DNA from: Spirochaetia bacterium
GTDB lineage: Bacteria; Spirochaetota; Spirochaetia; SZUA-6; Bin103
NCBI GenBank assembly: GCA_965203905.1
Contig: CBDBDQ010000005.1
Coordinates: 5,888,001-5,952,000, forward strand
Length of the DNA: 64,000 bases
Direction: 5' to 3'
Part shown: positions 1,838 to 55,938 of the stretch, piece by piece
Layout: every line of letters begins with the position of its first letter
Numbering within the stretch: the first letter of the stretch is position 1
Position numbers and translations under genes: made by a program
The notes under the pieces: model-generated
Told to the model about the DNA's origin: nothing
Database searches by the model: none
The model's input: only the letters and a program-made list of their open reading frames with translations

Positions 1838-2958
1838 TTAGCGAGCTCGGCCAACTGACTGATCTTGTCGACAAGCCACGACCATCCCTGGTTCGCATCA
1901 AGACTCAGGGAGCGTGTTTCCTCCTGCGAGTAGCCCCTTTCGTACGATAGCCACTCAGCCTGCCGCGTGGCGAGGTCGATTTCGAGGGTGACTGATTGGA
2001 CCCCTATCGACCACTCCATTTCGATTCCTCCCGTGGGCGTGGGAAACGTATGGGGTAGTGGAAGTTCATCTGGATAGTACTGATCAAAGCTCACTGCTAA
2101 CCAGTCCAGTTGATCATGTTGCGGGGCGACTCCGTCGCCGTCCAACCAGCCCGCCTTCATTCCGCGGAACTCTTCGAGCCGCGCCGGAACGTCGAGCGGA
2201 TCCAGCAGAGCAGTGTGTTCAACGGACTGAACGCGGACCAAGCGATCCTGCCGATCGTACCTGCCAAGCCCTTGTATCAGGACCTTGGTGGCGTCCCTGT
2301 AGCCGTTGAAAGCCTCCATAATCGCATCAAGATGCTGATCAGATACCACACCTGTGACCTTGCGTCCTCCGGCCATCTGCAATTCGAAGGTCATTCGGTC
2401 CTGATCAAGTTCCGGAATCAATCCACGAACCCGTATCTCAGCCGTCAGCTCTTTGATTCGTGATGACGCCAAGACCAGTCTTCGACGAGATTCTCGGGTG
2501 AGTCGTGTTACGCTCGTGCGTGACGGTGTAGTGAACTCGATCGACTCACCAGCGCGCAGACTTCGGCCAATTCTGTCAAAGTATCCCAGACACTTCTCGG
2601 GGAGATAGTCGACGACCGACTGGTTCTGTTCTGCCGCAGCAATGGCTCCAACAATCGCTTCGCGAGCGTGTTCAAAATAGCCTTGGAACGGAGGCGGTAT
2701 CTCAGGTAGCGTAGGAACAGCGGATTCCACACTGATCACTGGGATCGCGCTGCCGTCCTGAAGCCCGGTGAGTTTGAATGAAACGCTATCAGCGAGCCCC
2801 TTTGGCGAGCGAGTACGGCCAGGGTTATGCTTCAGGAAACACCACTTGGCGACTTCAATCGCCATCTCTCCGAGACCGGCAAGATCACCAAGAACATCTA
2901 GCGGGATGGCGCCCCCTTCGAAACGACGCCCCCGTAGACGCGGCCGTAAGAACTCCAT
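1834..2958 (-). CDS. Hypothetical ~374-aa multidomain protein, partner of the downstream small ORF
   Basis: ATG 2958 (GTG 2967 alternative) with upstream TACAAT; lower GC; central beta-rich OB-like segment and C-terminal GWLDGDG..P...PTPTGGIEMEW domain. Confidence 0.8.
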   Translation of the reverse strand: MEFLRPRLRGRRFEGGAIPLDVLGDLAGLGEMAIEVAKWCFLKHNPGRTRSPKGLADSVSFKLTGLQDGSAIPVISVESAVPTLPEIPPPFQGYFEHAREAIVGAIAAAEQNQSVVDYLPEKCLGYFDRIGRSLRAGESIEFTTPSRTSVTRLTRESRRRLVLASSRIKELTAEIRVRGLIPELDQDRMTFELQMAGGRKVTGVVSDQHLDAIMEAFNGYRDATKVLIQGLGRYDRQDRLVRVQSVEHTALLDPLDVPARLEEFRGMKAGWLDGDGVAPQHDQLDWLAVSFDQYYPDELPLPHTFPTPTGGIEMEWSIGVQSVTLEIDLATRQAEWLSYERGYSQEETRSLSLDANQGWSWLVDKISQLAELAK

Positions 2959-2988
2959 GCCTGGCACTTCGTCCCCCGTTCTACTCCT

Positions 2989-2994
2989 ATTGTA
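2989..2994 (-). promoter_or_regulatory. Putative -10 element (TACAAT) for the 2958-1457 cassette
   Basis: attgta on + strand, 30 nt upstream of the ATG; no clear -35. Confidence 0.4.
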
Positions 2995-3048
2995 CCGTAA
3001 TCAACGCACGTAGAGCAGTTTCACGATACATCAGCGGGCTGATCCGAT

Positions 3049-6794: not shown

Positions 6795-7829
6795 TCAGTC
6801 GGCGAAGGTGCGCAGGGAGAGCTGGCGCTGCAGATGACACGCCACCAGGTGCGACTCGCCTTCGGTGGTCGTCGCCTCCACCAGCTCCGGTTCCTCCACG
6901 CTGCAGCGCGGTTCGCGGTAAGGACAGCGCGTATGGAACGGACAGCCGGTGGGTCGCGTCCCGTAGGAGGGACTCTCGCCGGGCTTGACCAGGTGCAGCT
7001 TGCGCGCGGTGGGATCGGGATTGGGCGACGAGGTGAGCAGCAGCTCGGTGTAGGGGTGCTTCGGATGGGCGAAGATCTCGGCGCGGCTGGCCAGCTCCAC
7101 GATGCGCCCCAGGTACATGATCGCCACCCGGTCGCTCAGGTAGCGCACCACCGCCAGGTTGTGGGCGATGAACAGGTAGCTCATGGCGCGCCGCTCCTGC
7201 AGGCTGCGCATCAGGTTCAGGATCTGCGCCTGCACCGACACGTCGAGCGCCGAGACCGGCTCGTCGGCGATCACCACCCGCGGCTCCAGGATGAACGCGC
7301 GCGCGAACGCCAGCCGCTGCCGCTGCCCGCCCGAGAAGGAGTGCGGGTAGCGGTTCATGTAGACCGGGTCGAGTTGCACCAGGCGCAACATCGCCGCCAC
7401 CCGCTCCTTGAGCTCGGCGCCGCCCTGCGCCAGACGGTTGTTGATCAGCGGCTCGCCGACGATGCGCAGCACGGTCATGCGCGCGTTGAGCGATGCGAAC
7501 GGGTCCTGGAACACCACCCGCACCGCGCGCCGCAGCGCCCGCAGCTCCTCCGCCTCCATCCTGACAATGTCGCGCGCCGGCGCGTCGGGCTCCGCCGTGT
7601 ACCAGATCCGGCCGGCGGTCGGCTCCTCGCTGCGCACCAGGCACAGGCCGGTGGTGGTCTTGCCGCAACCGCTCTCGCCCACCAGCGCCAGCGTCTCGCC
7701 GCGCCCCAGCTCGAACGAGATCCGGTCCACCGCGCGCACCTCGCCCTGGCGGCGGCGCAGCAGCCCCGTCTCCTTGAGGTAGGTCTTGCTGAGCCGCTCG
7801 GCGGCGATGATCGGCCGGTCGTGGATCAC
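6795..7829 (-). CDS. Oligopeptide/dipeptide ABC transporter ATP-binding protein (OppF/DppF-like)
   Basis: Walker A GESGCGKT, VFQDP, FSGGQRQR, ADEPVSALD, HPYT and C-terminal GCPFHTRC. Confidence 0.93.
   Translation of the reverse strand: MIHDRPIIAAERLSKTYLKETGLLRRRQGEVRAVDRISFELGRGETLALVGESGCGKTTTGLCLVRSEEPTAGRIWYTAEPDAPARDIVRMEAEELRALRRAVRVVFQDPFASLNARMTVLRIVGEPLINNRLAQGGAELKERVAAMLRLVQLDPVYMNRYPHSFSGGQRQRLAFARAFILEPRVVIADEPVSALDVSVQAQILNLMRSLQERRAMSYLFIAHNLAVVRYLSDRVAIMYLGRIVELASRAEIFAHPKHPYTELLLTSSPNPDPTARKLHLVKPGESPSYGTRPTGCPFHTRCPYREPRCSVEEPELVEATTTEGESHLVACHLQRQLSLRTFAD
7802..7818. repeat. 17-bp direct repeat, copy 1 (cggcgatgatcggccgg)
   Basis: Identical to 10233-10249; lies in the first codons (RPIIA) of the OppF-like gene. 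Confidence 0.85.
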
Positions 7830-7853
7830 AACGATCGAGCGGCGGCCCTCGTG

Positions 7854-8178
7854 CTACGCCACCGCATCGCAGAACACCATCTCCCAGCCGTGAAACGCAG
7901 GGTGACGTAGCGGCTGCGTTCCGCCGTAGGACGGCGCCCGATGTCGGTGCCGGCGAACCGTGGCGTCGAAGTCGTTCGCCCAAAACGGTCGTAGTAGTTC
8001 TCCAGCAGCGACACCCACAGCGACTTGCCGAACCGCCGCGGGCGGATGAGGAATGCGAAGCGCTCCTGCTCCAGGCGCCGCAGGAAGCGGGCCTTGTCGA
8101 CGTACAGCCACCGGTTCAGGCGAATGCGCCCGAAGTCGCCCTCGCCGGAGGGAAGCGCGGGTAAGCGGTGTCGTCCAC
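7854..8178 (-). pseudogene. AAA-ATPase-like / PD-(D/E)XK family pseudogene (frameshifted, large internal deletion)
   Basis: GEGDF..IR...LYVDK...RPRRFGKSL (Walker A of this family)...F.GTDIG..PT.ERSRY..LRF, joined in another frame to FHGWEMVFCDAVA*, which resembles the family C-terminus; ~325 bp remain. Confidence 0.8.
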
Positions 8179-8433
8179 TGCCGAACCTTGCCGGAATCAC
8201 TGTACCGCGTTCGCACCGGCCCCTCAAACGCTCGGCCGGCGACGGGACGAAGGAACGTGAGACGACCTCTGCACGGTATGCCATCGCACGGACATCGGCG
8301 TCGAGAAGTCACGGACTCCATGGATTCCATCACCCTTCGGGCGCCGGCGCCAGACCGTCGAGGTCGAATCGCGAAGCGATCGACCTGTGCGCCCGAACGG
8401 TGAACACGCGGACACCAGTCACAGGCGAACCGC

Positions 8434-9723
8434 TCAACTGAGAGTATGGCACGCCCCACGAATGCGGTTCCGGTTGCGAATCTGGTCCTCGATCACGTAG
8501 GATGAAACGTTGAATCCGTCCGCTATTTCGTCCGCGTCGTAACCGTCCTCCCACATATCCACGACACTTCCGACCGGAGCAAGGAACTCCGCGGCAAACG
8601 CGCGGCCGGTCGCCTGCCGTTCGGCGTGATGGAGATCGTTTATCACCGACCGCGGAGTGTCGCGAAAGCATACGGCGTCGCCGACTGCCCGAGCGAACGC
8701 GAAATTGTTGGACCTCGTGCCGCCGTCCGCGGATTTGCTGTCCCGCCGATGGTCGCGCAGATGGATTCGGGTTCCGCCGTCAGGACGCGATACCAGCGCC
8801 CGCACACCGCGGAACAACTTGGCGGGCGCGAACGTTGCACCGCCCAGTTTTCTGGCAAGGATCGCGTGCGATGCGAAGCGGTGGTCCGACCCGATGCCCA
8901 AGGCGTCGCGGAACGCGCGAGCCGCTCGGTAACCTGCCGACCACGGACGATCATCCCGATGCTGTCGGATCATGGGTGCAATTTGACTGGCGACGTGAGC
9001 GAGCTCCGGTAGGCTCGATTGCGCTGCCGGCCGGGACTCTACCTGATCCACAAAGTCCGTCACCGTCACCGACCGTTCCTTCCTCGTGAGACCGGCCAGG
9101 AACTCGATCAGAGGTTCTTTCGAGAATACGCTGCCGGCCCGCTCGATGAATAGGGCTTCATCCTCTGCAATGGCGTACGGATCCAACCCCAAGGCTCCTG
9201 CCGCCTCGCAGAAAGCCTGCTCATCGGGATCGTTGCGAGATCCCGCAACACGCGACCAACACAGGGCGACTTCACTGTTCCGAACCCCCTCACCGGCAAG
9301 CCTGTCTACGACGTTCTCGATGAAGCGGGACAGTGTGGACTCGGCCGCCCCTCTCGGAAGCGTCTCATCTCCGGCGAACGGGAAGCGCAGGTGGGGGTTC
9401 TCGCTGTAGAAGGTCCTTCCCGTGACCTCGAACGTCGAGCCGTCGGCCCTGAAGCTCAGATCGGGAAGTGCGAATCCAGTCCGGTAGCGTTGTATGCGAT
9501 ATTCGCGGTCGCGACCGCCGAAAATACGCCACCAGTCGTTCGCGAGGCCTTCGGCAAGGTGGACGGCGGGCACGATGAGTGGCTCCGTGTCGTCGTTGGA
9601 CACGAAGTCGACAAACCGGCAGGCGTTCTGGTCCGAGACGTAGATCCGCAGATCGCACAGCGTCGCGCGTTCCTCAGCCGCGCGATTCAAACCGCCGTCA
9701 ATCCAATCTACGGAAAACCTCAT
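8434..9723 (-). CDS. ImmA/IrrE (metallopeptidase)-like protein with degenerate metal-binding motif
   Basis: NNFAFARAVGD sits where RFTLAHELGH is expected, followed by ERQATGRAFAAEFLAP and HTH-like EIADGFNVS; ATG 9723 (GTG 9732 alternative). Confidence 0.75.
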   Translation of the reverse strand: MRFSVDWIDGGLNRAAEERATLCDLRIYVSDQNACRFVDFVSNDDTEPLIVPAVHLAEGLANDWWRIFGGRDREYRIQRYRTGFALPDLSFRADGSTFEVTGRTFYSENPHLRFPFAGDETLPRGAAESTLSRFIENVVDRLAGEGVRNSEVALCWSRVAGSRNDPDEQAFCEAAGALGLDPYAIAEDEALFIERAGSVFSKEPLIEFLAGLTRKERSVTVTDFVDQVESRPAAQSSLPELAHVASQIAPMIRQHRDDRPWSAGYRAARAFRDALGIGSDHRFASHAILARKLGGATFAPAKLFRGVRALVSRPDGGTRIHLRDHRRDSKSADGGTRSNNFAFARAVGDAVCFRDTPRSVINDLHHAERQATGRAFAAEFLAPVGSVVDMWEDGYDADEIADGFNVSSYVIEDQIRNRNRIRGACHTLS

Positions 9724-10123
9724 CACGTTCACTCTTCGGGATCGGCCAGCCCTTGTAGTGCCCAGCGGCGGTGTTCATGCAGTAGCCACACCAATACTGA
9801 CCGGAAGAATCCCTATACCAAATCCTGTGTGGGTACTTCTGGTCGGACTGCACGAACTGGTAGTTTCCTTCCTCGATCGCCCTCCGGACCCATCCCGTTG
9901 CCCGGACGCGATCTTCATCCTCTGTCAATGGGCAGATCGTTGTCTTCTGCTTGTGAGCGCGTCCGACCCGTCCACCTCGCAGTTGCCGGCCCTTGGGTAA
10001 TCCTCCCCACCACCGGCGAAGCTTGTGCTCGGCGCTGCCCTCATACCGGGCCCCTGCCGCCAAGTCCCGTCGCTCCGCGCGAGACAACGGGGGCCGTACG
10101 GGTCTCTGCATTGGTCGTCTCAT
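9698..10123 (-). CDS. Hypothetical basic ~141-aa protein, possible RNase-type toxin
   Basis: Overlaps start of downstream gene; motifs YEGSAEHK, YP.RIW, GHYKGWP; start could be 10123 or 10111. Confidence 0.65.
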   Translation of the reverse strand: MRRPMQRPVRPPLSRAERRDLAAGARYEGSAEHKLRRWWGGLPKGRQLRGGRVGRAHKQKTTICPLTEDEDRVRATGWVRRAIEEGNYQFVQSDQKYPHRIWYRDSSGQYWCGYCMNTAAGHYKGWPIPKSERDEVFRRLD

Positions 10124-10232
10124 CCCACAGTCCAAGCCTGCATGGGCAAGCAGCGAGCATCAAGGTATCGGCACAACAACCATACAACAACCGCAGGAGG
10201 GACCCGAAGAAACCACATCTGAATCCCCTGCA

Positions 10233-10249
10233 CGGCGATGATCGGCCGG
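10233..10249. repeat. 17-bp direct repeat, copy 2 (cggcgatgatcggccgg)
   Basis: Identical to 7802-7818; lies in a stub ORF (MEARRPIIA...) that starts at the OppD-like stop. Confidence 0.85.
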
Positions 10250-10259
10250 CGTGCCTCCA

Positions 10260-11282
10260 CTACCCCGCTCCCCCGTTCCGCTGCAGGCAGGCCACTTCAT
10301 GCTCAGCCGCGAGCGCCACCGTCGCCGGCATCTCGGCGTCGCAGCGTCCCGGCACGAACTCGTCGCAGCGGGTGTGGAACGCACACCCCGGCGGCATCTC
10401 GTAGGGGCTCGGCACCATGCCCCGGATCGGCGTCAGCGCTTCGAGCGGGCCGGAGAGGCGCGGGATCGACGCCAGCAGCGCCCGCGCATAGGGATGCTCG
10501 GGCCGCGCGAACAGCGCACCGACCGGCGCCGTCTCCACCACCCGCCCGAGGTACATCACGACGACGCGTTCGGTGACCTCGGCGATCACCCCCAGGTCGT
10601 GGGTCACCAGGATCACCGCCATCTGCATGCTGCGCTGCATCTCCAGCATCAGGTTCAGCGCCTGCGCCTGCAGCGTCACGTCCAGCGCGGTGGTGGGCTC
10701 GTCGGCGATCAGGATGCGCGGCTCGCAGGCCACGGCCATGGCGATCATCGCCCGCTGGCGCATGCCGCCGCTGAGGTTGTGCGGGTAGGCGGCCAGGATG
10801 TCGGGATCGGTCAGGCCGACGCGGCCGAGCACTTCGAGCGAGCGCTCGGTCAGCTCCCGGCGCCGGCGCTGCCTGGGGATCTGTTGCGCCTCGTCCATCA
10901 TCGCGATCGCCTCGCCGATCTGGCTGCCGATGGTGTGCACCGGGCTGAACGACGTCATCGGTTCCTGGAAGATCATCGAGATGTCGTTGCGGCGGATCGA
11001 CTTCATGGTCTCGCTCTCGCGCGCTTCATCGGTAATGGTCACCGTCTCGCCCACCGCGTGGTATCGGACCCTCCCGCGCGTGACGCGGGCCACCGGCGGC
11101 AGGATGCCGAGGATCGTCAACGCGGTGACGCTCTTGCCGCAGCCGCTCTCGCCGATGATGCCGAGCACTTCGTTGCGGTTCAGGGTGAAGCTGACGCCGT
11201 TCACCGCCCGCACCGTGCCTTCCTTGGAAGGAAACTCCACGTACAGGTCATCGACCTCCAGCAGCGTCTCGGCCACGATCAC
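10260..11282 (-). CDS. Oligopeptide/dipeptide ABC transporter ATP-binding protein (OppD/DppD-like)
   Basis: GTGA overlap with upstream permease; [39 protein letters not shown]. Confidence 0.93.
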
Positions 11283-12421
11283 ACCTTGGCATAGGGGTCG
11301 GCGGCGTCGCGCATGCCGTCGCCGATGAAGTTGAACGCCAGGATGGCGGCCACCACGAAGAACGCGGGAATGAACAGCCACTGGGCCGCGATCAGGTTGC
11401 GCAGGTGTCTGCACTCCTGCAGCATCACCCCCCAGCTTATTGCCGGCGGCTGCAGCCCGAGGCCGATGAAGCTGAGCGCGGTCTCGCCCAGGATCATGCC
11501 GGGGATGGCCAGGGTCAGCTCGGCGATGGTGTGGCTCAGGAACGAAGGCAGCAGGTAGGAGAAGATCAGCTTGCCGTGGCCGACGTTGTCGAGGCGGGCG
11601 GCGCGGATGTACTCCTCCCGCTTGAGCGCCATGAACTTGCCGCGCACGGTACGGCTGCCACCGGTGACCACCCCGATCAAAGCCAGGATCACCGTAATCA
11701 GCACGAAGCGCTGCACCACCGAGAGCCGCACCGGCAGCGCCGCCGCCAGCGCGATCCACAGCGGCAGCGTGGGCACGCTCATGAAGGTCTCGGTGATGCG
11801 CATGATCACCTTGTCCACCACCCCGCCGAGCAACCCCGCGATGCCGCCGATGAACAGGCTCGGGAAGAAGCCGATCAGAATGCCGACGAAGCCCACGGTC
11901 AGCGAAATGCGCGACCCGTACACGATGCGCGAAAACAGGTCGCGCCCGAGTGAGTCCTTGCCCAGCAGGCTGAAGATGCGGCCGTCGCGCAGGCCGAACA
12001 GGTGCAGGTTGCTGGGAATCAGTCCCCACATGCGGTAGGGGTCGCCGCGCACCAGCAGGTACAGCGGTTGCACGATGGTCGTGTCCACCGAGTAGAGGTA
12101 CTCCCAGGTGTCGGGATCGACGGTCTTGACGATCGGGTGCACGAACGGGCGCGGGTGGAAGCGGCCGGCGGCGTCGAAGAACCTGATCCGCTGCGGCGGC
12201 GCCAGGGTGAACTCCTCGTCGTACGAGCGCGGGTCGTAGGGAGAGATGAACTCGGCGAAGATGACGCCGAGATAGAGGAAGCCGATGAAGCCGAGCGCCA
12301 CCACGGCGACCCGGTGGCGCAGGAAGCGCCAGCGCATGAGCTGCCACTGCGAGGCGTAGGCGTGCTGACCGGTCGCCACCCGCGGATCGCCGAGCTGCAG
12401 CGACGCGCCCGAGGTGCTCAT
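11279..12421 (-). CDS. Peptide/nickel ABC transporter permease (OppC-like)
   Basis: ATGA overlap; LGKDSLGRDLFSRIVYGSRISL, ETALSFIGLG, FNFIGDGMRDAADP. Confidence 0.93.
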   Translation of the reverse strand: MSTSGASLQLGDPRVATGQHAYASQWQLMRWRFLRHRVAVVALGFIGFLYLGVIFAEFISPYDPRSYDEEFTLAPPQRIRFFDAAGRFHPRPFVHPIVKTVDPDTWEYLYSVDTTIVQPLYLLVRGDPYRMWGLIPSNLHLFGLRDGRIFSLLGKDSLGRDLFSRIVYGSRISLTVGFVGILIGFFPSLFIGGIAGLLGGVVDKVIMRITETFMSVPTLPLWIALAAALPVRLSVVQRFVLITVILALIGVVTGGSRTVRGKFMALKREEYIRAARLDNVGHGKLIFSYLLPSFLSHTIAELTLAIPGMILGETALSFIGLGLQPPAISWGVMLQECRHLRNLIAAQWLFIPAFFVVAAILAFNFIGDGMRDAADPYAKV

Positions 12422-15508: not shown

Positions 15509-15553
15509 GGCGCAATTTTGCGCCAGTATTGGAAACCGCGCGGGAGGTGTCAA
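15509..15553 (-). promoter_or_regulatory. Sigma70-type promoter with palindromic operator candidate for the peptide ABC operon
   Basis: TTGACA (15548-15553)-17 nt-AATACT (15525-15530), then inverted repeat ggcgcaa-tt-ttgcgcc (15509-15524) over the expected start site. Confidence 0.6.
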
Positions 15554-16908
15554 CTTCCCGCGGGCGGGTGCGGCGGGTGCGTGCGGCCGATCCCGATCGC
15601 TTCTTCAAGGAGAGAGCGCAAGCTGGCCACAGCGTAGAGCGGGACTGAAACTACAGGCCCGTCACGACGATAGCCACCGGAGTAGACGCGCAACGCCAAC
15701 GGCGGCCGATAACGCTCGACGAACGCCGCCAGGCTGCGTAGGCGGCCCACCTTGCCTGACTTGACCTCGACCGGGATCACGCGACCCGCGGCCGCCGTGA
15801 GGTAGTCGACCTCGGCGCTGCTGGAGCTTCTGTGCCGGTGCCAGTAGAACAGCTCCGGCCGTTCGTATGGGCTCCGATGCGCCAGCAGTTCCTGCCCCAC
15901 GAACTGCTCGGCAACCGCGCCGTCGTTGATGCGCATGGGATCGCCGTGCAGGAGCTGCTCGGTTGCCCCGCACAGGTTCTGCATCAGACCGACGTCGACC
16001 ATGACGAGCTTGTAGTGGCGGTCGTCCGCCTCCGCGCCCAGGGGCAGTCCGGCTCCCGAAGTCGAGCAGACGCGGTGCACGATCCCCGCCCGCTGCAACA
16101 GCTCCACCGCCGCGCGCAGATCGCGTGAGCGGCTGTCCGGGTCGACCTTCGAATACATGAACTTGCGCCCGACCAGGCGCGCCGCGTGCAGGAACACCCG
16201 GTCCAGGTGATGGTGGCTGGAGGCCCGTGCGTACTTGCCGAAGTCGTCACGAAGGGTCTGGGTGATGGCGGTCTGAAGCCGGCTGGCGCGAGCCACGCTG
16301 CCGCTCTCCAGGTACTCCGCGACCACGGCCGGCATGCCGCCGAGCAGCAGGTAGGTCCGCAGCAAAGACACCAAGTGCTCGTGGACGGCGCTGGTCGGGG
16401 TGACGGTGCCCACTCTGGACGCCCGCAACGCGGGCTCCTCGCCAACCGCCGTCAAGAACTCCGCGAACGACAGCGGAAACATGAACAGGGGTTGGATGCG
16501 GCCCACCGGAATGCGCAACCGCTCCGCCTCCAGGGCGAATTCGAGGAGCGATCCCGCACCGATCACGTGCAGGTCGGGTACCTGCTCGTAGAAGTAGCGC
16601 AACGCCATGACGGCGGCCGGGCACTCCTGGATCTCGTCGATGAACAGCAGCGTGCGACCGGGATCGACCCGCGTTCCTCGGAGAATCCCGATCTGGTCGA
16701 GAATCGCGCGCGGTTCCAGAGTGTCGAAGCAGCGCCGGTAGCGAGGCTGCTGCTCCAGGTTGATCGAGGCGACATCGGAGAAGCTCCGTTCGCCCAGCGC
16801 CGTAACCGCGTAGGTCTTGCCGACCTGGCGGGCGCCGCGGATCAGCAGGGGCAGCCGGCGGCTGTCCCGCGCCCAGGCGTCCAGCACGTCGTCCACCAGT
16901 CTCTTCAC
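15550..16908 (-). CDS. AAA family ATPase (AAA_14 + DUF4143, C-terminal PD-(D/E)XK-like)
   Basis: GARQVGKT, LFIDEIQ, AGS, GGMPA, D.GL, EVDYL...PVEVKS. Confidence 0.92.
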   Translation of the reverse strand: MKRLVDDVLDAWARDSRRLPLLIRGARQVGKTYAVTALGERSFSDVASINLEQQPRYRRCFDTLEPRAILDQIGILRGTRVDPGRTLLFIDEIQECPAAVMALRYFYEQVPDLHVIGAGSLLEFALEAERLRIPVGRIQPLFMFPLSFAEFLTAVGEEPALRASRVGTVTPTSAVHEHLVSLLRTYLLLGGMPAVVAEYLESGSVARASRLQTAITQTLRDDFGKYARASSHHHLDRVFLHAARLVGRKFMYSKVDPDSRSRDLRAAVELLQRAGIVHRVCSTSGAGLPLGAEADDRHYKLVMVDVGLMQNLCGATEQLLHGDPMRINDGAVAEQFVGQELLAHRSPYERPELFYWHRHRSSSSAEVDYLTAAAGRVIPVEVKSGKVGRLRSLAAFVERYRPPLALRVYSGGYRRDGPVVSVPLYAVASLRSLLEEAIGIGRTHPPHPPAGS

Positions 16909-17216
16909 AACTCCTCCAAGGTGATGCTCCGTACGCGCGTCGGTAGTGCCGACTCACCATACGACAGGTATCGGTAAAAAACAAGGGTAATAAACACCGA
17001 CTAATGGCTATATTACACCCATAAATTAACCAATCACGGATGATAGCGACGATTTGCCGCAGATCCACGACGGACAGTGTGGGCAAGTGGGCGGGGTTAT
17101 GGCAGACTCGCTCGAAGGAGTCCTGCACCCATGCCGGTTTGTTTCTTGAGCTCCACCAGACTTGCCACACGGGCAGGAGCGGCTGCGCCGCGCGCCGCTG
17201 GCGCAGGTGCGGTCGG

Positions 17217-30307: not shown

Positions 30308-30934
30308 TCAGACCTGGGCGGAGTCGAAGATGGCCGCAACGTCAGCGGAGAATCCCTGCAACAGGTGGGAGGCCGCGCGCGTCCCCCGCCGATAGGTGCC
30401 GTGCTTCCGGTACTCGTCGCCGGCCAGCACCAGCACCGTCACCGTCGCGGTGTCAGGGTCGACGAGCCAGTATTCGGGAATGCGCGCCGCAGCGTAGTCG
30501 CGGCGCTTGTCGAACCGGTCGCGCTCAGGCCGGTCCGGACCCACCACCTCGACCACCAGATCGGCGCCGGTCCAGAAGCGGTTGCCGCGACGGGGGTCCG
30601 CCGCGTCGCGCACCAGCAGCAGGTCCGGCTCGCGAAACGCGTCGGTGCGCACCCTGAGGCGCAAGGGCGCGTACAGCACCTTGCCGCCGCGAGTCTGCAG
30701 ATGTGCGAGCAACTGGCCGTAGAGATGGGCCGAGATGCACTGATGTTCCTCAGTCGGCATCGGCAGGACCTCGATGCAGCCGTCGGTCAACTCCAGCAGG
30801 CGATGGCCGTGATCGGTCAGCCACAGGTACTCAGCCTCTTGCCACCAACCTTGCCGCGGGAGCGTGTCGAGCACGAACGAGTCGACCGCTTCCTGCGCCG
30901 GAGGCGTGGTCGCGGGGTCTGTTCGGGTCGCCAT
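30308..30934 (-). CDS. Uma2 (DUF820) family endonuclease
   Basis: EL.DG.IEVLPMPT..HQ, REPDL, DLVVEV, DKRRDYA..RIPEYWLVDP. Confidence 0.9.
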   Translation of the reverse strand: MATRTDPATTPPAQEAVDSFVLDTLPRQGWWQEAEYLWLTDHGHRLLELTDGCIEVLPMPTEEHQCISAHLYGQLLAHLQTRGGKVLYAPLRLRVRTDAFREPDLLLVRDAADPRRGNRFWTGADLVVEVVGPDRPERDRFDKRRDYAAARIPEYWLVDPDTATVTVLVLAGDEYRKHGTYRRGTRAASHLLQGFSADVAAIFDSAQV

Positions 30935-30945
30935 GGGAACGCGGC

Positions 30946-31848
30946 TTAGCGCCCCACCTCCTGCCGTTGCCGCAGCGTTGCCGCCTCCCACTCCTCCCAG
31001 GTCGGCAGTGGCGCGGCGCTGAGCACCGGCAATGGTACGCGACCATTTCCCCGCTGGCGCCCGCGAAGCTCCTCGATCGCCTCGCGGGAACTCCCGCTGA
31101 GCACCTCGGGCGGCGCGTGGTAGCGGAAGTCGACGCTCCAGCGCGAGGAGTCGGTGTGATTCATCTTGCTGGTGTGGAAGGTGAGGTTGGTCAGGAACAG
31201 GACATCGCCGGCGGCCATCTCGAGGGGAGTCGGCGTGCCGCGCTGCTCGATCTCCTCGGTGGTGCGCACGTTCATGTCCTCGCCGCGCCCGGCGTCGATC
31301 AACCCCCAACGGTGGCTGCCGGGCAGCACCCATATACAGCCGTTGTCGACCGTGGCGTCCACCAGCGGCACCCACACCGTGACGATGTGGCTGGCCTCGG
31401 AGTAGCCCACCTTCTGGCCCGGACGCGGTTCGTTGTAGTAGTGGCTGTCCTGGTGCCACGGGAAGGCGGTGATCTCCGCCTCCGGAATCTTGGTGCGAAT
31501 GTTCAGGCCGCCCAGCTCGACCACCTCGGGGCCGAGCACGGCGCCGAGCACCCGCAGGATGCCGGGGTGCTTGAACAGGTCGTAGAACACCCTGCCAAAG
31601 CTGGCACCGATCCAGCCGCGCGGCGAGAACTCCATCTCGCGGCAGATGGTTGCAAAGCGGCGCTGGAACGGCAGCTCCTCGTAAGGTGAGGAGATCTTGC
31701 CCTCGGCGTGCAGTCCGGCAGCGTACTCGTCCACTTGCGCGGCGAGGAACTCGCGCACCGGGTCGAGCTCCGCCGGAGCCAGGATGCCGCGCTCCACCAG
31801 GTAACCGTCGCGCTCGTAAGCGGCGCGAATCGCTGAGTCGTCACTCAT
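30946..31848 (-). CDS. PhyH family Fe(II)/2OG dioxygenase
   Basis: YERDGYL, FPWHQDS.Y, NGC.WVLPGSH, FH.S..N....RWS.DFRY. Confidence 0.9.
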   Translation of the reverse strand: MSDDSAIRAAYERDGYLVERGILAPAELDPVREFLAAQVDEYAAGLHAEGKISSPYEELPFQRRFATICREMEFSPRGWIGASFGRVFYDLFKHPGILRVLGAVLGPEVVELGGLNIRTKIPEAEITAFPWHQDSHYYNEPRPGQKVGYSEASHIVTVWVPLVDATVDNGCIWVLPGSHRWGLIDAGRGEDMNVRTTEEIEQRGTPTPLEMAAGDVLFLTNLTFHTSKMNHTDSSRWSVDFRYHAPPEVLSGSSREAIEELRGRQRGNGRVPLPVLSAAPLPTWEEWEAATLRQRQEVGR

Positions 31849-31948
31849 GGCTGTCACTGTACGCTCCGTGGAGCGGCGGCGCAACGCCACGAACGTGCCC
31901 CTTTTCAGCACACGGCGAACGTGATGCTCCCGCGCTGATTCGTAGCGC

Positions 31949-33271
31949 TTACTCCTGGTCCTCCTGGCGATAGAACCTCGAGTAGTAGCCGCCGTAGGTC
32001 AGCCAGGGATGCTGCCCCTGAATATTGGGCGACGGAGGCTCGTTCCACCACCCCGACACCAGGATCCCGCCGTCTCCCATCGGCGCGTAGGCGAATCGCG
32101 CGCCAAGCTCGACAGCCCACCAGTTGGGCTGTGCCTCCCCGAAGTCGGTTGCGGAAATCTCGCTCAGGGGGAGATAGAGGTTACCAGCGTCGTGGCTCCA
32201 CTTCCCCTCCATCACGAAGTCCCACTCACCGTTGTCCACGAGGCTCTGGGGGTTGAGAGAATGATACCGGAACGTGCCATCCGCGCGCAGAGTAATGGTG
32301 AGCTGAATATCGTCCGATGGCCGGATCGGACGTACCCAGGTACCAACCAGGTCAGGCAGCGCGTTCTCCAGGCGCTCGTAGCGAAACAGATCCGGCCGGT
32401 AGTCATACCCCGGGCTCCATGCCCACTCGCTGACGATGAGCACGTCGCCATCGACCAGGTAGTAGTCGTGCTCGTTCGTCGCTTCGACGGGTGGATCACC
32501 ATCGATCCACTTCCGGGTGATCGCGGAGTCGGATACGCCCCAGCCACCTGAATCGGACCAAGAGTTGACGACCGTCCCGTCGAACAGAACCTGCTCAACA
32601 TAACTGATCCACCGCTCCCTGGTGAAGGTCAACGTCGCCCTCGTATCGCCGACCAGCTCATCGTCTTCGCGGTAGCCCTCCGCAAAAGTGGTGCGCCAGG
32701 TTCCGAGGAGGCAGCGAAGCAGTCGTCCACTCACATCGCAACCCTGCACGACGCTCAGGTCGACACCGATCAGATCCGCCATTTGCAGATCGGCGTCCGT
32801 CAGATCGGCACCGTGTAGATCGGCACCAACCAATGTGGCGCCGCGCAGGTTTGCACCGGTCAGGCCAACCCCGCGGAGGATCGCTCCAGACAGGTCCGCG
32901 CTGTCCAGGTTCGCTGCCGCCAGATCGGCGCCGCTCAAGTCAGCGCCGCGCAAGGTAGTAGAGATCAGCGTGGCACCGCGCAAATCTGCGCCTCGCAGGT
33001 TGGCACCGTCCAAGTCACTGTTGCGGAGATCGGCCCCAGCCAAGCTCGCGTAGCTCAGGTTGATCTCGCGCAGATCCACACCGGACAGGCTCGCTCCAAC
33101 CAGGTTTGCGTTGGAACAGTCGGGCATGCACGCAAGCCGACCCTCACCACCAGCAGTCTCGGACGGCACGGCGGTCGGCGTAGTGAGCGGTTCGCAGTTG
33201 GCCAGCACCAACAGGCACGCAGTAGCACAGAGAACCCTCAGCACGTCCCTTCTCTGCAGTATCGTATCCAT
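31949..33271 (-). CDS. Pentapeptide-repeat lipoprotein with duplicated C-terminal beta domains
   Basis: Signal ending in lipobox-like LANC; about 25 A(D/N)Lxx repeats; two similar units starting LLGTW and LVGTW. Confidence 0.85.
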   Translation of the reverse strand: MDTILQRRDVLRVLCATACLLVLANCEPLTTPTAVPSETAGGEGRLACMPDCSNANLVGASLSGVDLREINLSYASLAGADLRNSDLDGANLRGADLRGATLISTTLRGADLSGADLAAANLDSADLSGAILRGVGLTGANLRGATLVGADLHGADLTDADLQMADLIGVDLSVVQGCDVSGRLLRCLLGTWRTTFAEGYREDDELVGDTRATLTFTRERWISYVEQVLFDGTVVNSWSDSGGWGVSDSAITRKWIDGDPPVEATNEHDYYLVDGDVLIVSEWAWSPGYDYRPDLFRYERLENALPDLVGTWVRPIRPSDDIQLTITLRADGTFRYHSLNPQSLVDNGEWDFVMEGKWSHDAGNLYLPLSEISATDFGEAQPNWWAVELGARFAYAPMGDGGILVSGWWNEPPSPNIQGQHPWLTYGGYYSRFYRQEDQE

Positions 33272-33734
33272 AACAATCTCCCGATGGTGGCTCGTCCACC
33301 GTCTATCTATGCTTCCGGTCGTCGAGATTAGTTACGCTTGGCTTGGGCACATCAAATCTCGAGATCCTATCGTGTTGCTGATGCAATGGCAGACGGATAT
33401 TGTCAACCGTTATGAATGAGGCCCTGATCTTCGCCGTCCATTCCATAATTGTGCACAAAGTATTGTGTAGCATGGATTTACATGCGCACGTGTTGTATTG
33501 GACTCAAGAGGATACTCCATCGGTCCGTTCGCGAAATGGCGATCTCTTTGGTTCATGATTTTCGCGCCAATTCGTGAGTTCGCGGATTGGGTTTCTATCT
33601 CATTGCTCTACGATGGCGACTGTTTCCATCAATTCATTTTAGAGAAACGATTTACTCTCGATGGTTTCGCACTGTGCCTAAGGAGTCGCGCCATCGCAAA
33701 ATAGAAAACTACAGAGTAGATTCGGGAACTATTC

Positions 33735-33763
33735 CGCGAATTCGCGAATTCGCGAATTCGCGA
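33735..33763. repeat. Tandem 8-bp repeat (cgcgaatt)x3.6 forming a 28-bp perfect palindrome
   Basis: cgcgaattcgcgaattcgcgaattcgcg read directly at 33735-33762. Confidence 0.9.
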
Positions 33764-33918
33764 GAGAGAATTCGGTACTTGGCGACCGATTCCTGACTTC
33801 TTGCAATACAACGCCCGGCGAGATCGTCAAAACACGACTCGGTACTCCACGTATGTCGGGTCACGGCGCGAACAACCCGCCGGGGGCGAGGGAGTAGCGC
33901 CTCGTGCGAGCCGAGAGC

Positions 33919-33974
33919 GCGGTGGCGGCGGCGCTACCTGGGACCCGGCAAGCAGGTGGGTCGCATGGCCTTGG
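33919..33974 (+). pseudogene. Fragment of a BNR/sialidase-like gene
   Basis: GGATWDPASRWVAWPW matches GGRTWDPASRRVVWPY of the 35340 gene; 19-bp identity between 33935-33953 and 35522-35540. Confidence 0.7.
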
Positions 33975-34122
33975 CCGGCACCGCGCCGTACCACTCCAGG
34001 CGGCCTCCGGGTCGGAACCCGGCTCCGCCGGACGCCGCGTCCTGCGCCGTCATCGCCGCCTACCGCACGCCTTACGACTCGTTGCCGCCGTCCCCACGAG
34101 TCGCGGTGACGCCGGGAACGGC

Positions 34123-54700: not shown

Positions 54701-55855
54701 TCACCAGAGCCGGTCGGTATGCAGGGCTTCCAGGAGGTCGGGCAGCGGCCACACGTCGATGCCGTCCGGGCTCCGCATGCGGCGCGTACCCGTATAGGTC
54801 AGAATCCGGCGCCGAAGGCCGGGCAGCGGGGCGACGGCACGGAGTCCGGCCAGATGACGATCATGGATCCGCGAGGAGGCCTTGGATTCGATGGCGATGG
54901 CGTCGCCGTCGCGCAACAACAGGAAGTCGACCTCCGTGTCCCGCGCGCGCGCCGGCGCCCAGTAGAACATCTCGTCGAACGCTCCGTGGTAGTCGCGATA
55001 GCTTGCGAGCACCGTGGCGATCCAGCCCTCGAACAGGGAGCCTCGTTCGCGCGGGTCGAGTTCTCGAAGGCGCCCGCCCGCGGCGCGCGCCAAGCCAGGA
55101 TCGATCCAGTACAGCTTGGGGTGCTTCCGTTCCCGGACCCGCAACTTCGGGTCATACGCCGGCAGCCGGAACGCCACCAGCGTGTCCTCCAGGATCTCAA
55201 CGTAACCCGCCAACGTCGTGCGGCTGACTTCGGCGTCGCGGGCGGCGGAAGCCAGGTTGAGCGTCTGGCCGTGAAACAGCGCGGCGACCGGCAGGAAGCG
55301 TGCGAACCCGGACAGGTTCCGAACCAGCGCTTCGCCCTTGATCTCTTCCTTCAGGTAGAGCTGCATGTACGACCGCAACGCCGCAACCCGGTCGTCGGCG
55401 TTCCAGATCACCGGCAGGCTGCCGTGCCGGAGCACCGTCTCCAGGTCGAAGTCGGTCCCCAGCTCGTGTGGCAGAAAGGGATACATGCGGGTGTAGATCG
55501 CGCGCCCGCCCAGGAGGTTCACACCGGCCCGCTTCAACTTGCGCGCCGACGATCCGGTGAGGATGAAACGGAGCCCGCCGCCTTCGATGTGACGGTGGAC
55601 CTCGTTGAGCAGACCGGGCAGCCGCTGTATCTCATCCACGAACACCCAGCCGCCGGGGGCAACCGTCCGCAACTCGGCAGCGAATCGTCCTGCGTCTGCC
55701 AGATAGCTCTGATACAGAGCCTCGTCGAGTAGATCGACGCGATACGCTTCCGGGTATTCATGGCGGACCCAGGTGGTCTTGCCGGTTCCGCGCGGGCCGA
55801 ACAGAAAGAAGGACGAACGCGGTGTCGCCAGCGTACGTGATCGAAACACGCTCAT
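54701..55855 (-). CDS. AAA family ATPase (AAA_14 + DUF4143)
   Basis: FGPRGTGKT, VDEIQ, LTGSSARKL, GSLP, PKLY..DPG, EVDFL...AIESK. Confidence 0.92.
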   Translation of the reverse strand: MSVFRSRTLATPRSSFFLFGPRGTGKTTWVRHEYPEAYRVDLLDEALYQSYLADAGRFAAELRTVAPGGWVFVDEIQRLPGLLNEVHRHIEGGGLRFILTGSSARKLKRAGVNLLGGRAIYTRMYPFLPHELGTDFDLETVLRHGSLPVIWNADDRVAALRSYMQLYLKEEIKGEALVRNLSGFARFLPVAALFHGQTLNLASAARDAEVSRTTLAGYVEILEDTLVAFRLPAYDPKLRVRERKHPKLYWIDPGLARAAGGRLRELDPRERGSLFEGWIATVLASYRDYHGAFDEMFYWAPARARDTEVDFLLLRDGDAIAIESKASSRIHDRHLAGLRAVAPLPGLRRRILTYTGTRRMRSPDGIDVWPLPDLLEALHTDRLW

Positions 55856-55899
55856 GCCAACCCGCAACCGGTACGGCGTGATCTGAAATGTGATAGGTG

Positions 55900-55938
55900 T
55901 GTCGTCATTTTGCGTCGCTTTATGACGACATTATAGCA
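55900..55938 (-). promoter_or_regulatory. Extended -10 promoter plus operator-like inverted repeat for the DUF4143 ATPase
   Basis: TGcTATAAT on minus strand (55930-55938) abutting tgtcgtcat-13 nt-atgacgaca (55900-55930). Confidence 0.65.

What the first reader, a model, noticed from the sequence alone, without database searches (positions are those of the whole stretch)
8434..10123. Candidate novel TA/defence pair: RNase-like small protein plus ImmA/IrrE pseudo-protease
Seen: a basic ~141-aa ORF (YEGSAEHK...YPHRIW...GHYKGWP) overlaps a ~430-aa ORF whose C-terminus follows the ImmA/IrrE layout (F.FA----G, A.AFAAEFLAP, HTH) but has RAVGD where HExxH should be, behind a ~250-aa unrecognised N-terminal region. 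Known: ImmA/IrrE zinc peptidases need HExxH and serve as regulators or antitoxins in stress and defence loci (e.g. RosmerTA). Inference: a catalytically dead peptidase fold reused as binding antitoxin or phage sensor, controlling a nuclease whose HK and terminal G(W/Y)P motifs recall RNase toxins. This is my best candidate for an undescribed system in the window.
Basis: partly seen in the sequence, partly recalled or inferred. Interest (0 to 1): 0.78.

Follow-up and report, generated by a model that had tools for sequence, protein, structure and literature searches.

The report
Toxin-antitoxin-like pair with dead peptidase
A small basic protein and a large partner built on a zinc-peptidase fold that has lost its catalytic residues form a widespread, horizontally acquired two-gene cassette that looks like an undescribed toxin-antitoxin or phage-defence module.

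Summary
On the minus strand a 141-aa basic ORF (10123..9698) overlaps by 26 nt a 429-aa acidic ORF (9723..8434). Neither matches any Pfam, NCBIfam, PADLOC or PHROGs family. The large protein's C-terminal third is a remote ImmA/IrrE (Peptidase_M78) relative. HExxH is replaced by R-[AG]-x-G-D in 196 of 196 alignable homologues, and also in three plasmid relatives at 22-28% identity. This is a conserved pseudo-peptidase, not local decay. The two genes are linked: 71 of 80 genomic loci carry the small gene directly upstream, and all 54 intact pairs overlap. The pairing persists in a plasmid pair only about 22% identical. The small gene is deleted, IS-split or frameshifted far more often than the large one. 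A distant homologue of the large protein follows a Pfam TumE toxin gene. In the window the cassette lies in a 2431-bp insert with foreign codon usage. The insert is flanked by perfect 17-nt direct repeats and splits an ABC-transporter operon. Best reading: an unnamed toxin-first TA or defence module with a pseudo-ImmA antitoxin. The nuclease idea has no support, and protein-protein binding could not be tested because the complex tool never ran.

The parts
9698..10123 (-). Small gene (141 aa from ATG 10123; an upstream TTG at 10135 would give 145 aa). It is basic and tryptophan-rich. Residues nearly invariant across the wider family are Y-x-G-S-x-x-H-K, C-P, F-P-x-x-x-W and G-x-Y-[KH]-G-[WY]-P. 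Putative toxin or effector.
   Evidence: AF2 model pLDDT 75.8. pI 10.3.
8434..9723 (-). Big gene (429 aa from ATG 9723; GTG 9732 would give 432 aa). Acidic, multi-domain. Putative antitoxin or sensor.
   Evidence: AF2 model pLDDT 89.7, pTM 0.88. pI 5.7.
9698..9723 (-). 26-nt overlap of the small gene's end with the big gene's start, suggesting translational coupling.
   Evidence: All 54 intact pairs in other genomes overlap: 17 nt in 34, 26 nt in 9, 4 nt in 6, 29 nt in 3, 11 nt in 1, 5 nt in 1.
8839..9723 (-). N-terminal about 295 residues of the big protein: a beta-rich domain (about 1-123) and a helical domain (about 124-292). Conserved motifs are PAVHLAEG..DWW.IFGGRD, FCEAAGALG.DPY and GYRAARA.R. 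No family assigned.
8671..8703 (-). FAFARAVGDAV (residues 341-351): the position where ImmA/IrrE proteins carry HExxH. Here it reads R-A-V-G-D.
   Evidence: R in 196 of 196, A or G next, G in 196 of 196, D in most; the motif is kept in relatives at 22-28% identity.
8575..8625 (-). AERQATGRAFAAEFLAP (residues 367-383): counterpart of the ImmA/IrrE E...FA..LL.P helix. R-Q and RAFAAE are near-invariant. The Glu at the place of the third zinc ligand varies.
8464..8574 (-). C-terminal helical tail with an HTH-like signature.
   Evidence: weak profile matches to GerE, SsrB, gamma-delta resolvase HTH and DesR (E 0.17-1.7); 6 of 22 members hit DUF433. HTH_DeoR in a distant relative.
10233..10249 (.). 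Right copy of a perfect 17-nt direct repeat, CGGCGATGATCGGCCGG, just after the stop of the upstream ABC ATPase gene.
   Evidence: only 2 copies in 64 kb; 0 of 100 shuffles reach 2.
7802..7818 (.). Left copy of the 17-nt direct repeat, inside codons 5-10 of the downstream ABC ATPase gene. The two copies bound a 2431-bp insert.
7826..8284 (-). Truncated N-terminal fragment of an AAA-ATPase_like (PF09820) gene. It matches profile positions 3-86 of 201 and was carried in with the cassette.

Best explanation
The pair is a horizontally acquired, toxin-first, type II toxin-antitoxin-like cassette of a family that has no name.

- The small basic protein is the growth-inhibiting effector. Its target is unknown.
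- The large acidic protein is its neutralising partner. Its ImmA/IrrE-derived domain no longer binds zinc or cleaves, and is inferred to hold the small protein non-catalytically. The inference is that it does so through the conserved R-x-x-G-D / RQ..RAFAAE groove, and perhaps by grasping the conserved but unstructured RWWGGLP...KQ.TTICPL segment of the small protein.
- The C-terminal HTH-like tail could autoregulate the operon.
- The roughly 295-residue N-terminal region could act as a sensor that releases the toxin on stress or phage infection.

Shown: gene anatomy, conservation of the dead motif, linkage, overlap, mobility, decay asymmetry.
Inferred: toxicity, direct binding, DNA binding, trigger.
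For: 1. Linkage. 71 of 80 loci have the small gene directly upstream on the same strand. All 54 intact pairs overlap. Pairwise identities of the two proteins correlate (r = 0.85, Mantel 0 of 999). A Rhizobium sp. Pop5 plasmid carries a pair at about 22% identity with a 4-nt overlap (hhalign prob 98.0 and 95.9).

2. Polarity.
- Among the 80 loci the small gene is absent in 4 and partial in 12 where the big gene is intact. The reverse holds in 3.
- After removing contig-edge cases the count is 13 against 2-3, which gives binomial p of about 1e-6 for the gene lengths.
- Clear cases: L066 has the small gene split by a 1.2-kb insertion; L002 and L006 keep only its last codons.
- The small protein is basic (family median pI 9.7) and the big one acidic (5.4).
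- A distant big homologue on an R. etli plasmid (hhalign prob 99.8) sits directly after a TumE toxin gene (PF20126, E 9e-7). TumE is an experimentally validated toxin (PMC10584680, section 8 read).

3. ImmA domains as antitoxin hubs. These are known from NetFlax and RosmerTA, with 58% toxin-first order (PMC10440598, passages read).

4. Dead peptidase. 0 of 196 homologues have HExxH at the motif.

5. Mobility.
- GC3 is 0.67 and 0.71 for the pair against 0.92-0.94 in flanking genes.
- 17-nt direct repeats bound the insert.
- DNA similarity to relatives stops at the cassette ends.
- One MAG record holds 3 loci, another holds 2, and one SAR202 bin holds 2 on separate contigs.
- The pair occurs on plasmids.
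- On Agrobacterium pAt2 the pair lies about 3.3 kb from repC. A gene with nSTAND3 and Mrr_cat domains lies between them, and an Mrr-type restriction gene follows the pair.
Against: - No toxicity, binding or DNA-binding data exist. The complex prediction could not be run.
- The small protein has no recognisable toxin fold or family.
- A 429-aa, four-module antitoxin is unusually large.
- Several 'broken' genes come from MAG assemblies, and I suspect but did not test that some frameshifts are assembly errors. The deletion and IS cases do not depend on this.
- In 3 loci the small gene is intact while the big gene is frameshifted or cut. That would be lethal for a strict TA unless these are errors.
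- The big-protein tree is largely clustered by phylum (6 label changes, minimum 5). The family is therefore less promiscuous than many TA modules.
- No promoter-like site was found upstream.
Confidence: 0.6

Rival explanations
1. It is a dedicated anti-phage abortive-infection system rather than an addiction module. The big protein is a phage sensor built on CapP/IrrE-type sensing without cleavage. It keeps the small effector inactive until infection.
For: A subset of loci lie among defence genes:
- Agrobacterium pAt2: between an nSTAND3+Mrr gene and an Mrr-type gene, with an integrase further downstream.
- Massilia plasmid: beside dptH, a patatin-like gene and a PD-(D/E)XK gene.
- L066: between an Mrr gene and an OLD-type AAA_15/TOPRIM gene.
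- L067: between an integrase and a GmrSD/Schlafen gene.
- L002: next to GmrSD.

NetFlax reports that the ImmA zone of its network is enriched in defence systems (PMC10440598, passages read). The large N-terminal region has no other obvious role.
Against: - Most of the 133 nearest-neighbour ORFs are housekeeping or unknown, and no baseline for enrichment was computed.
- PADLOC gave 0 hits.
- The phage collection gave no homologue by tblastn.
- In the window the cassette sits in a transporter operon, not a defence island.
Confidence: 0.3
2. It is not a toxin system. The big protein is a ligand-sensing transcription factor of the PrpR/RamB type (an IrrE-like fold without HExxH, plus an HTH). The small protein is a co-regulator or a regulated product.
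For: - PrpR structures 6cz6 and 6cyy are among the Foldseek matches (prob 0.51-0.54).
- PrpR has an IrrE-like domain whose HExxH residues are not conserved, and it senses CoA and an Fe-S cluster (PMC6765138, passages read).
- The big protein has an HTH-like tail.
- The R. etli relative has an added wHTH.
Against: - The overlapping two-gene cassette moves as a unit between unrelated contexts.
- The decay asymmetry and the pairing with a TumE toxin are not expected for a metabolic regulator.
- No conserved target genes lie nearby.
Confidence: 0.12
3. The polarity is reversed. The big protein is the effector, for example a non-canonical hydrolase using R, D and Q residues. The small basic protein is its inhibitor or regulator.
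For: - The R-x-x-G-D and R-Q residues are under very strong constraint, as expected of an active site.
- Gene order in ImmA-type pairs is variable (PMC10440598, passage read).
Against: - The small gene is the one repeatedly lost while the big gene survives alone.
- TumE, a validated toxin, occupies the small gene's place in a relative.
- No zinc ligands remain.
Confidence: 0.08

Closest known systems
RosmerTA and the NetFlax D25 'ImmA protease antitoxin hub' (Ernits et al. 2023, PMC10440598; passages read)
   Same: It is a two-gene module. An ImmA/IrrE-type domain protein plays the antitoxin role opposite interchangeable, unrelated small toxins. Toxin-first order is common. There is some association with defence loci. 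Here the big family is seen with at least three different upstream partners: the small family, TumE, and an 80-aa ORF.
   Different: - There is no HExxH (0 of 196), so a cleavage-based mechanism is excluded.
- There is no N-terminal Xre HTH.
- About 295 extra N-terminal residues have no assigned family.
- The HTH-like element is C-terminal.
- No PADLOC model matches.
- The toxin family is new.
- NetFlax Dataset S1 and its unpruned network were not examined, so a node there could correspond to this family.
ImmA, IrrE/PprI and CapP metallopeptidases (Peptidase_M78, PF06114, COG2856)
   Same: The fold and helix layout around the motif are shared. Evidence is sub-threshold PF06114 hits in 11 of 22 members and a best structural match to CapP 7t5t, with IrrE 3dte and PprI 8slm also listed.
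   Different: - The zinc ligands are replaced: His to Arg, Glu to Ala or Gly, His to Asp, and the third-ligand Glu is variable.
- No Xre-type repressor substrate is encoded next to it.
- Matches are below the curated and E<=1e-3 thresholds.
M. tuberculosis PrpR/RamB transcription factors (PDB 6CZ6, 6CYY; PMC6765138, passages read)
   Same: This is a precedent for an IrrE-like fold that has lost HExxH and serves as a non-catalytic sensing or binding module joined to an HTH. It appears among the Foldseek matches.
   Different: PrpR has an N-terminal HTH, a GAF-like domain, an Fe-S cluster and CoA. It regulates methylcitrate genes and has no small overlapping partner. Similarity here is weak (prob about 0.5).
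TumE-TumA toxin-antitoxin superfamily (Durairaj et al. 2023, PMC10584680; abstract, section 8 and passages read)
   Same: It is a recently recognised 'dark' TA family in which one toxin is neutralised by diverse unrelated antitoxins. One such partner, on an R. etli plasmid, is a distant homologue of the big protein fused to a wHTH.
   Different: The window's small protein is not a TumE. hhalign prob is 0.1 and there is no PF20126 hit. Its predicted fold has 3 strands, whereas the paper describes 7.

Membership tests
ImmA/IrrE (Peptidase_M78, PF06114) | Sequence or fold similarity to the family model | tested here: inconclusive
   The window protein has no Pfam hit at E<=1. 11 of 22 family members hit PF06114, best E 1.6e-4. 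One member scanned separately scored 20.2 bits against the 22-bit cut-off. Foldseek's best match is CapP 7t5t (E 0.055, prob 1.00, TM 0.24/0.35), but 0 matches reach E<=1e-3. PDB sequence profiles give no IrrE hit.
ImmA/IrrE (Peptidase_M78, PF06114) | HExxH zinc-binding catalytic motif | tested here: not met
   The motif is R-[AG]-x-G-[D...] in 196 of 196 aligned homologues; 2 further sequences are gapped. The same holds in three plasmid relatives at 22-28% identity.
ImmA/IrrE (Peptidase_M78, PF06114) | Third zinc ligand Glu in the downstream E...FA..LL.P helix | tested here: inconclusive
   The helix motif RAFAAE[FL]LAP is conserved. The Glu at the ligand position is E in most sequences but Y, F, A, D, V or G in dozens. 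The assignment of this Glu as the ligand rests on my recollection of IrrE.
ImmA/IrrE (Peptidase_M78, PF06114) | Adjacent Xre/cI-type HTH repressor that is the cleavage substrate | tested here: not met
   The conserved neighbour is the small protein, which has no HTH family hit. No other conserved neighbour was found across the 80 loci.
RosmerTA (RmrT/RmrA) | Match to the system's detection models | tested here: not met
   PADLOC-DB v2 gave 0 families for both proteins at E<=1. That Rosmer models are in that release is my recollection. DefenseFinder was not available.
RosmerTA (RmrT/RmrA) | Antitoxin made of an HTH plus an active ImmA peptidase domain | tested here: not met
   There is no N-terminal HTH and no HExxH.
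Type II toxin-antitoxin module (generic) | Conserved, co-oriented, overlapping two-gene operon that moves as a unit | tested here: met
   Distant plasmid pair.
Type II toxin-antitoxin module (generic) | Toxin arrests growth and the cognate antitoxin neutralises it by direct binding | not testable with these tools
Only indirect support exists: decay asymmetry and charge complementarity.
TumE toxin (PF20126) | Similarity of the small protein to TumE | tested here: not met
   hhalign of A3 against the R. etli TumE gave prob 0.1. There is no PF20126 hit in 40 members.
RNase toxins (RelE/barnase-type or polymorphic Ntox) | Recognisable nuclease fold or family match for the small protein | tested here: not met
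   Foldseek against PDB and BFVD gave 0 matches at E<=1e-3. The PDB profile search gave none. A search for longer proteins found only small+big fusions and over-extended gene calls, and no polymorphic-toxin fusion. The Atlas's nearest named clusters, DUF6972/Ntox50, score only 0.78.

The most novel reading that the evidence does not exclude
The big protein founds a widespread, unnamed hub family of pseudo-peptidase antitoxin-sensors. In this reading a dead ImmA/IrrE active-site groove holds a partner's loop like an uncleavable substrate. An N-terminal sensor region of about 295 residues releases the partner on a phage or stress cue. The small protein is a toxin with a fold not represented in the PDB. 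The hub has swapped partners at least three times: the small family, TumE, and an 80-aa ORF.
Probability: 0.3. Interest if true: 0.75.

Novelty: new variant of a known kind. Interest (0 to 1): 0.6.

Why it matters
ImmA/IrrE-domain antitoxins (RosmerTA, the NetFlax D25 hub) are thought to work through proteolysis of an HTH. This family keeps the fold under strong selection but has replaced every zinc ligand. If it neutralises a toxin, it must do so by binding.

That would show a second, non-catalytic way to use this fold in TA and defence biology. The fold is already known to be repurposed in the PrpR transcription factor.

The small protein would add a toxin family with no Pfam model and no structural relative. 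Both families are large, spread over at least eight phyla by record title, and occur on plasmids, so annotation of many genomes would benefit.

The window also gives a clean natural example of a TA-like cassette dropped into a transporter operon, with the junctions still readable.

Tried and rejected
- **Complex prediction of small plus big (A2 + A1).** Every time the queue was full or the machine gave no usable answer, so no result exists and binding stays untested.
- **Structure searches for the small protein.** PDB and BFVD gave nothing at E<=1e-3. The best PDB rows are PAS/LOV and a CDI-complex chain (5t87_F, prob 0.35), which I judged to be noise.
- **Sequence searches against PDB.** Profiles A1 and A3 returned only noise (interleukin-4, PqqL). 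The A4 'CAP repeat' hit at 1e-6 is a designed repeat that matches the HTH-like tail five times; I do not count it as homology.
- **DUF1707/SHOCT hits.** These occur in 8 of 40 small proteins, best E 0.0012. I attribute them to the charged N-terminal helix and reject them.
- **Atlas.** For the small protein, its own unnamed clusters score 0.94-0.96 and DUF6972/Ntox50 only 0.78. For the big N-terminal region nothing scores above 0.78.
- **Search for longer fused forms of the small domain.** It found only small+big fusions, which look like frameshifts, and two over-extended gene calls. No polymorphic-toxin context was found. The tool itself says this is weak evidence.
- **PHROGs and phage tblastn.** No relatives were found.
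- **Conserved third gene.** Neighbour clustering found only order-level synteny in Vicinamibacterales: DUF1552, DUF1592-type and ankyrin genes.
- **Promoter and terminator scan.** There was no sigma-70-like site, and terminator-like sites were at the chance level.
- **Whirly-like or CdiI-like matches to the big N-terminal domain.** These have prob <=0.3 and were not used.
Full report
**1. The observation**

Both ORFs are on the minus strand.
- The small ORF runs 10135..9698 from a TTG. Its relatives begin M[KR]RP, which puts the start at ATG 10123 and the length at 141 aa.
- The large ORF runs 9732..8434 from a GTG. Its relatives are 429 aa and begin MRFSV, which puts the start at ATG 9723.
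- The two genes overlap by 26 nt.
RAVGD is at residues 345-349, within FAFARAVGDAV.
- The small protein is basic (pI 10.3) and the large one acidic (pI 5.7). Family medians are 9.7 and 5.4.

**2. These are real, conserved genes without a family name**

- The large protein has at least 786 homologues at E<=1e-3 among 8000 scored candidates. The 120 listed are 52-100% identical.
- The small protein has 45 homologues in the word-indexed search. The exhaustive profile search found 248 clusters at 50% identity at E<=1e-3, 95 of them at E<=1e-10.
- Neither window protein hits Pfam, NCBIfam or PADLOC at E<=1, or PHROGs at E<=0.1.
- Of 64 relatives of the small protein scanned, mostly distant ones, none has a Pfam family covering the domain.
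- One relative of the large protein carries the NCBI name 'ImmA/IrrE family metallo-endopeptidase', as does the Tistrella plasmid copy.

**3. The large protein**

The AlphaFold2 model is confident (pLDDT 89.7, pTM 0.88). It shows four parts:
- a beta-rich domain (about 1-123);
- a helical domain (about 124-292);
- an alpha/beta unit (about 300-383), whose long helix 332-352 carries RAVGD;
- a C-terminal helical tail.

Foldseek against the PDB gives no match at E<=1e-3. The best match is the CBASS-associated protease CapP (7t5t; E 0.055, prob 1.00). IrrE (3dte, 3dti), PprI (8slm) and M. tuberculosis PrpR (6cz6, 6cyy) also appear.

When each family member is scanned separately, 11 of 22 hit Peptidase_M78 (best E 1.6e-4) and 6 of 22 hit DUF433. 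I conclude that the C-terminal third is a remote ImmA/IrrE relative. The evidence is consistent but below threshold.

A profile of the C-terminal domain (A4, 32 sequences) gives weak matches to the HTH of GerE, SsrB, gamma-delta resolvase and DesR, to the last 35 or so residues only (E 0.17-1.7).

**4. The dead motif is conserved**

I aligned 120 proteins and 78 locus ORFs. Of these 198 sequences, 196 are alignable at the motif and 2 are gapped.
- The position of the first His is Arg in 196 of 196.
- The Glu position is Ala or Gly.
- The Gly is invariant.
- The second His position is Asp in most, and G, N, T, S, H or Q in a few.
- No sequence has HExxH there. One has an HExxH elsewhere.
- The downstream helix RQ..GRAFAAE[FL]LAP is near-invariant. 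The Glu I take, from memory of IrrE, to be the third zinc ligand is replaced in dozens of sequences.

Three plasmid relatives at 22-28% identity keep aR..GD and RQ..RAFA..L.P. This is a selected, repurposed site and not decay. There is a precedent for an IrrE-like fold without HExxH serving as a sensing module: PrpR (PMC6765138, passages read).

**5. The small protein**

The model (pLDDT 75.8) has these elements:
- a helix at 19-28;
- a poorly predicted stretch at about 40-65, although that stretch is highly conserved (RWWGGLP...KQ.TTICPL);
- a helix at 73-88;
- three strands at 104-132;
- a short C-terminal helix.

Across the wider family (A3, 54 sequences down to 21% identity) the near-invariant residues are Y27, G29, S30, H33, K34, C64, P98, W102, G121, Y123 and G125.

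No structural or sequence relative was found in PDB or BFVD. The Atlas offers only a weak lead to DUF6972/Ntox50 at 0.78. A search for longer proteins found only small+big fusions and over-extended gene calls, and no polymorphic-toxin fusion. The nuclease proposal therefore has no support beyond the motifs themselves.

**6. Linkage**

The genome collection returned 80 loci. An HMM of the small protein finds it directly upstream, on the same strand, in 71 of them.

| State in the 80 loci | Loci |
|---|---|
| Both genes intact | 54 |
| Big intact, small partial | 12 |
| Big intact, small absent | 4 |
| Big broken, small intact | 3 |
| Both broken | 2 |
| Big broken, small absent | 5 |

- All 54 intact pairs overlap: 17 nt in 34, 26 nt in 9, 4 nt in 6, 29 nt in 3, 11 nt in 1 and 5 nt in 1.
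- Pairwise identities of the two proteins correlate (r = 0.85 over 1485 pairs; Mantel 0 of 999). This shows co-inheritance, not necessarily co-evolution.
- A far more distant pair lies on a Rhizobium sp. Pop5 plasmid, with a 4-nt overlap. hhalign gives prob 98.0 for the small and 95.9 for the big protein, at about 22% identity.

**7. Which one is the toxin**

There are three indirect lines of evidence.

(a) Decay asymmetry.
- I set aside the contig-edge cases L017, L061 and L073, and the N-terminally short L041.
- The small gene is then lost or broken beside an intact big gene in 13 loci. The reverse holds in 2 or 3.
- Given the gene lengths, binomial p is about 1e-6.
- Clear cases: L066 has the small gene split by a 1.2-kb insertion holding a 399-aa ORF. 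I read that ORF by eye as a transposase and did not test it. L002 and L006 retain only the last codons of the small gene.
- Some frameshifts could be assembly errors; this was not tested.

(b) Charge pattern.

(c) Partner exchange.
- On an R. etli plasmid, a 529-aa homologue of the big protein follows a TumE gene. The homologue scores hhalign prob 99.8 over 368 columns and has an added HVO_A0114/ArsR-type wHTH. The TumE gene hits PF20126 at E 9e-7, above the cut-off.
- TumE is an experimentally validated, translation-inhibiting toxin neutralised by diverse antitoxins (PMC10584680, section 8 read).
- On a Massilia plasmid, another homologue (prob 99.3) follows an unrelated 80-aa ORF with a 4-nt overlap.
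- The window's small protein is not itself a TumE.

**8. Mobility and context**

- DNA similarity to the closest relative (L010, 83.6%) runs from window 8431 to 10123 and stops there.
- GC3 is 0.67 (small) and 0.71 (big) against 0.92-0.94 for the flanking ABC genes.
- A perfect 17-nt direct repeat at 7802-7818 and 10233-10249 is found only twice in the window; 0 of 100 shuffles reach 2.
- The repeat bounds a 2431-bp insert holding the pair and a truncated PF09820 gene fragment.
- The insert sits exactly at the junction of two oligopeptide-type ABC ATPase genes.
- The right repeat copy is preceded by TAG/GTG and reads in frame ...RRPIIA. This matches the ...DRPIIAAERL now found at the start of the downstream gene, so the old junction is still legible.
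- Nearest neighbours in other genomes are heterogeneous (133 ORFs from 70 loci). About 15 of those loci show a defence-, TA- or MGE-type domain next door: GmrSD, Mrr, OLD-type ATPase, integrase, resolvase, MazF, PIN, Uma2, ArdC, NERD. No baseline was computed.
- On Agrobacterium pAt2 the pair lies between an nSTAND3+Mrr gene and an Mrr-type gene, downstream of repB and repC, with an integrase gene a little further on.
- Multiple copies occur. One MAG record holds three loci and another holds two. One SAR202 bin holds two on separate contigs.
- The quick tree of 55 big proteins places the window next to a record titled 'Spirochaetia bacterium' (support 99). It is mostly clustered by phylum, needing 6 label changes against a minimum of 5. 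A few placements cross phyla (the careful tree search did not finish).

**9. Mechanism proposed**

Most likely (0.6) this is a toxin-first, type II TA-like cassette. The small protein is the effector. The big protein neutralises it by binding, using the dead peptidase groove. The HTH-like tail would autoregulate, and the N-terminal region would sense a trigger.

The steps from 'binds' onward are inferred. The complex prediction that would have tested binding never ran (see Tried and rejected).

An abortive-infection role (0.3) is compatible and not exclusive. A PrpR-like regulatory role (0.12) and reversed polarity (0.08) are less likely.

**10. Comparison and novelty**

The module works like RosmerTA and the NetFlax D25 ImmA-hub systems (PMC10440598, passages read). 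It fails their defining features, which are an active HExxH peptidase, an Xre HTH and a model match.

It is not a member of ImmA/IrrE in the enzymatic sense. It is not TumE-TumA, although its antitoxin-side family overlaps with TumE partners.

Full-text searches found no description of an HExxH-less ImmA-type antitoxin or of the small family. The NetFlax supplementary datasets were not examined and might list it as an unnamed node.

I rate it a new variant of a known kind, with interest 0.6.

Noticed in passing
window 7802-7818 and 10233-10249: A perfect 17-nt direct repeat bounds a 2431-bp insert placed exactly at the stop/start junction of two oligopeptide-type ABC ATPase genes. The former in-frame start (GTG 10260-10258...RRPIIA) is still readable upstream of the insert.
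   Followed up: yes
window 7826-8284 (-): A 152-aa ORF is only the N-terminal fragment of an AAA-ATPase_like (PF09820) protein (profile positions 3-86 of 201). It ends in a 4-nt overlap with the GTG start of the downstream ABC ATPase gene, and looks like donor DNA dragged in with the cassette.
   Followed up: partly
window 6795-7829, 8434-10123, 10260-11291: There is a strong codon-usage contrast. GC3 is 0.67-0.71 in the pair and 0.92-0.94 in the flanking transporter genes.
   Followed up: yes
window 15553-16953 (-) and 54704-55930 (-): There are two paralogous AAA_14 + DUF4143 ATPase genes. The first lies directly after the ABC operon's substrate-binding protein gene.
   Followed up: no
window 30311-33331 and 33001-34000: A Uma2-family putative restriction endonuclease domain sits at the end of a 510-aa ORF, next to a pentapeptide-repeat gene. 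A low-GC stretch follows (0.557, against a window mean of 0.684), and another lies at 2001-3000 (0.563).
   Followed up: no
L066 4337-6014: The small gene is split by a 1.2-kb insertion carrying a 399-aa ORF on the opposite strand that reads like a transposase (by eye, not tested). The big gene is intact. The locus lies between an Mrr-type gene and an OLD-type AAA_15/TOPRIM gene.
   Followed up: partly
L082 4132-6095 (R. etli plasmid NZ_CP006988.1): A TumE toxin gene is followed by a 529-aa fusion of an HVO_A0114/ArsR-type wHTH with a homologue of the big protein. This is a TumE partner type I did not see mentioned in the parts of the TumE paper I read.
   Followed up: partly
L003, L010, L035 (record OZ244929.1): One MAG chromosome holds three copies of the cassette. 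Two of them are less than 10 kb apart. All three have a frameshifted or missing small gene, or a broken big gene.
   Followed up: no
L005, L008, L011, L014, L032, L034, L078 and other Vicinamibacterales loci: In this order the pair keeps a constant neighbourhood: DUF1552 (HXXSHH) and DUF1592-type genes upstream, and a large ankyrin-repeat gene downstream. This suggests vertical inheritance there.
   Followed up: partly
L085 (Tistrella mobilis pTM2, NC_017966.1): The small gene is detectable by tblastn directly upstream of the annotated 'ImmA/IrrE family metallo-endopeptidase'. It is absent from the gene table at hand, which is stated to be incomplete.
   Followed up: no
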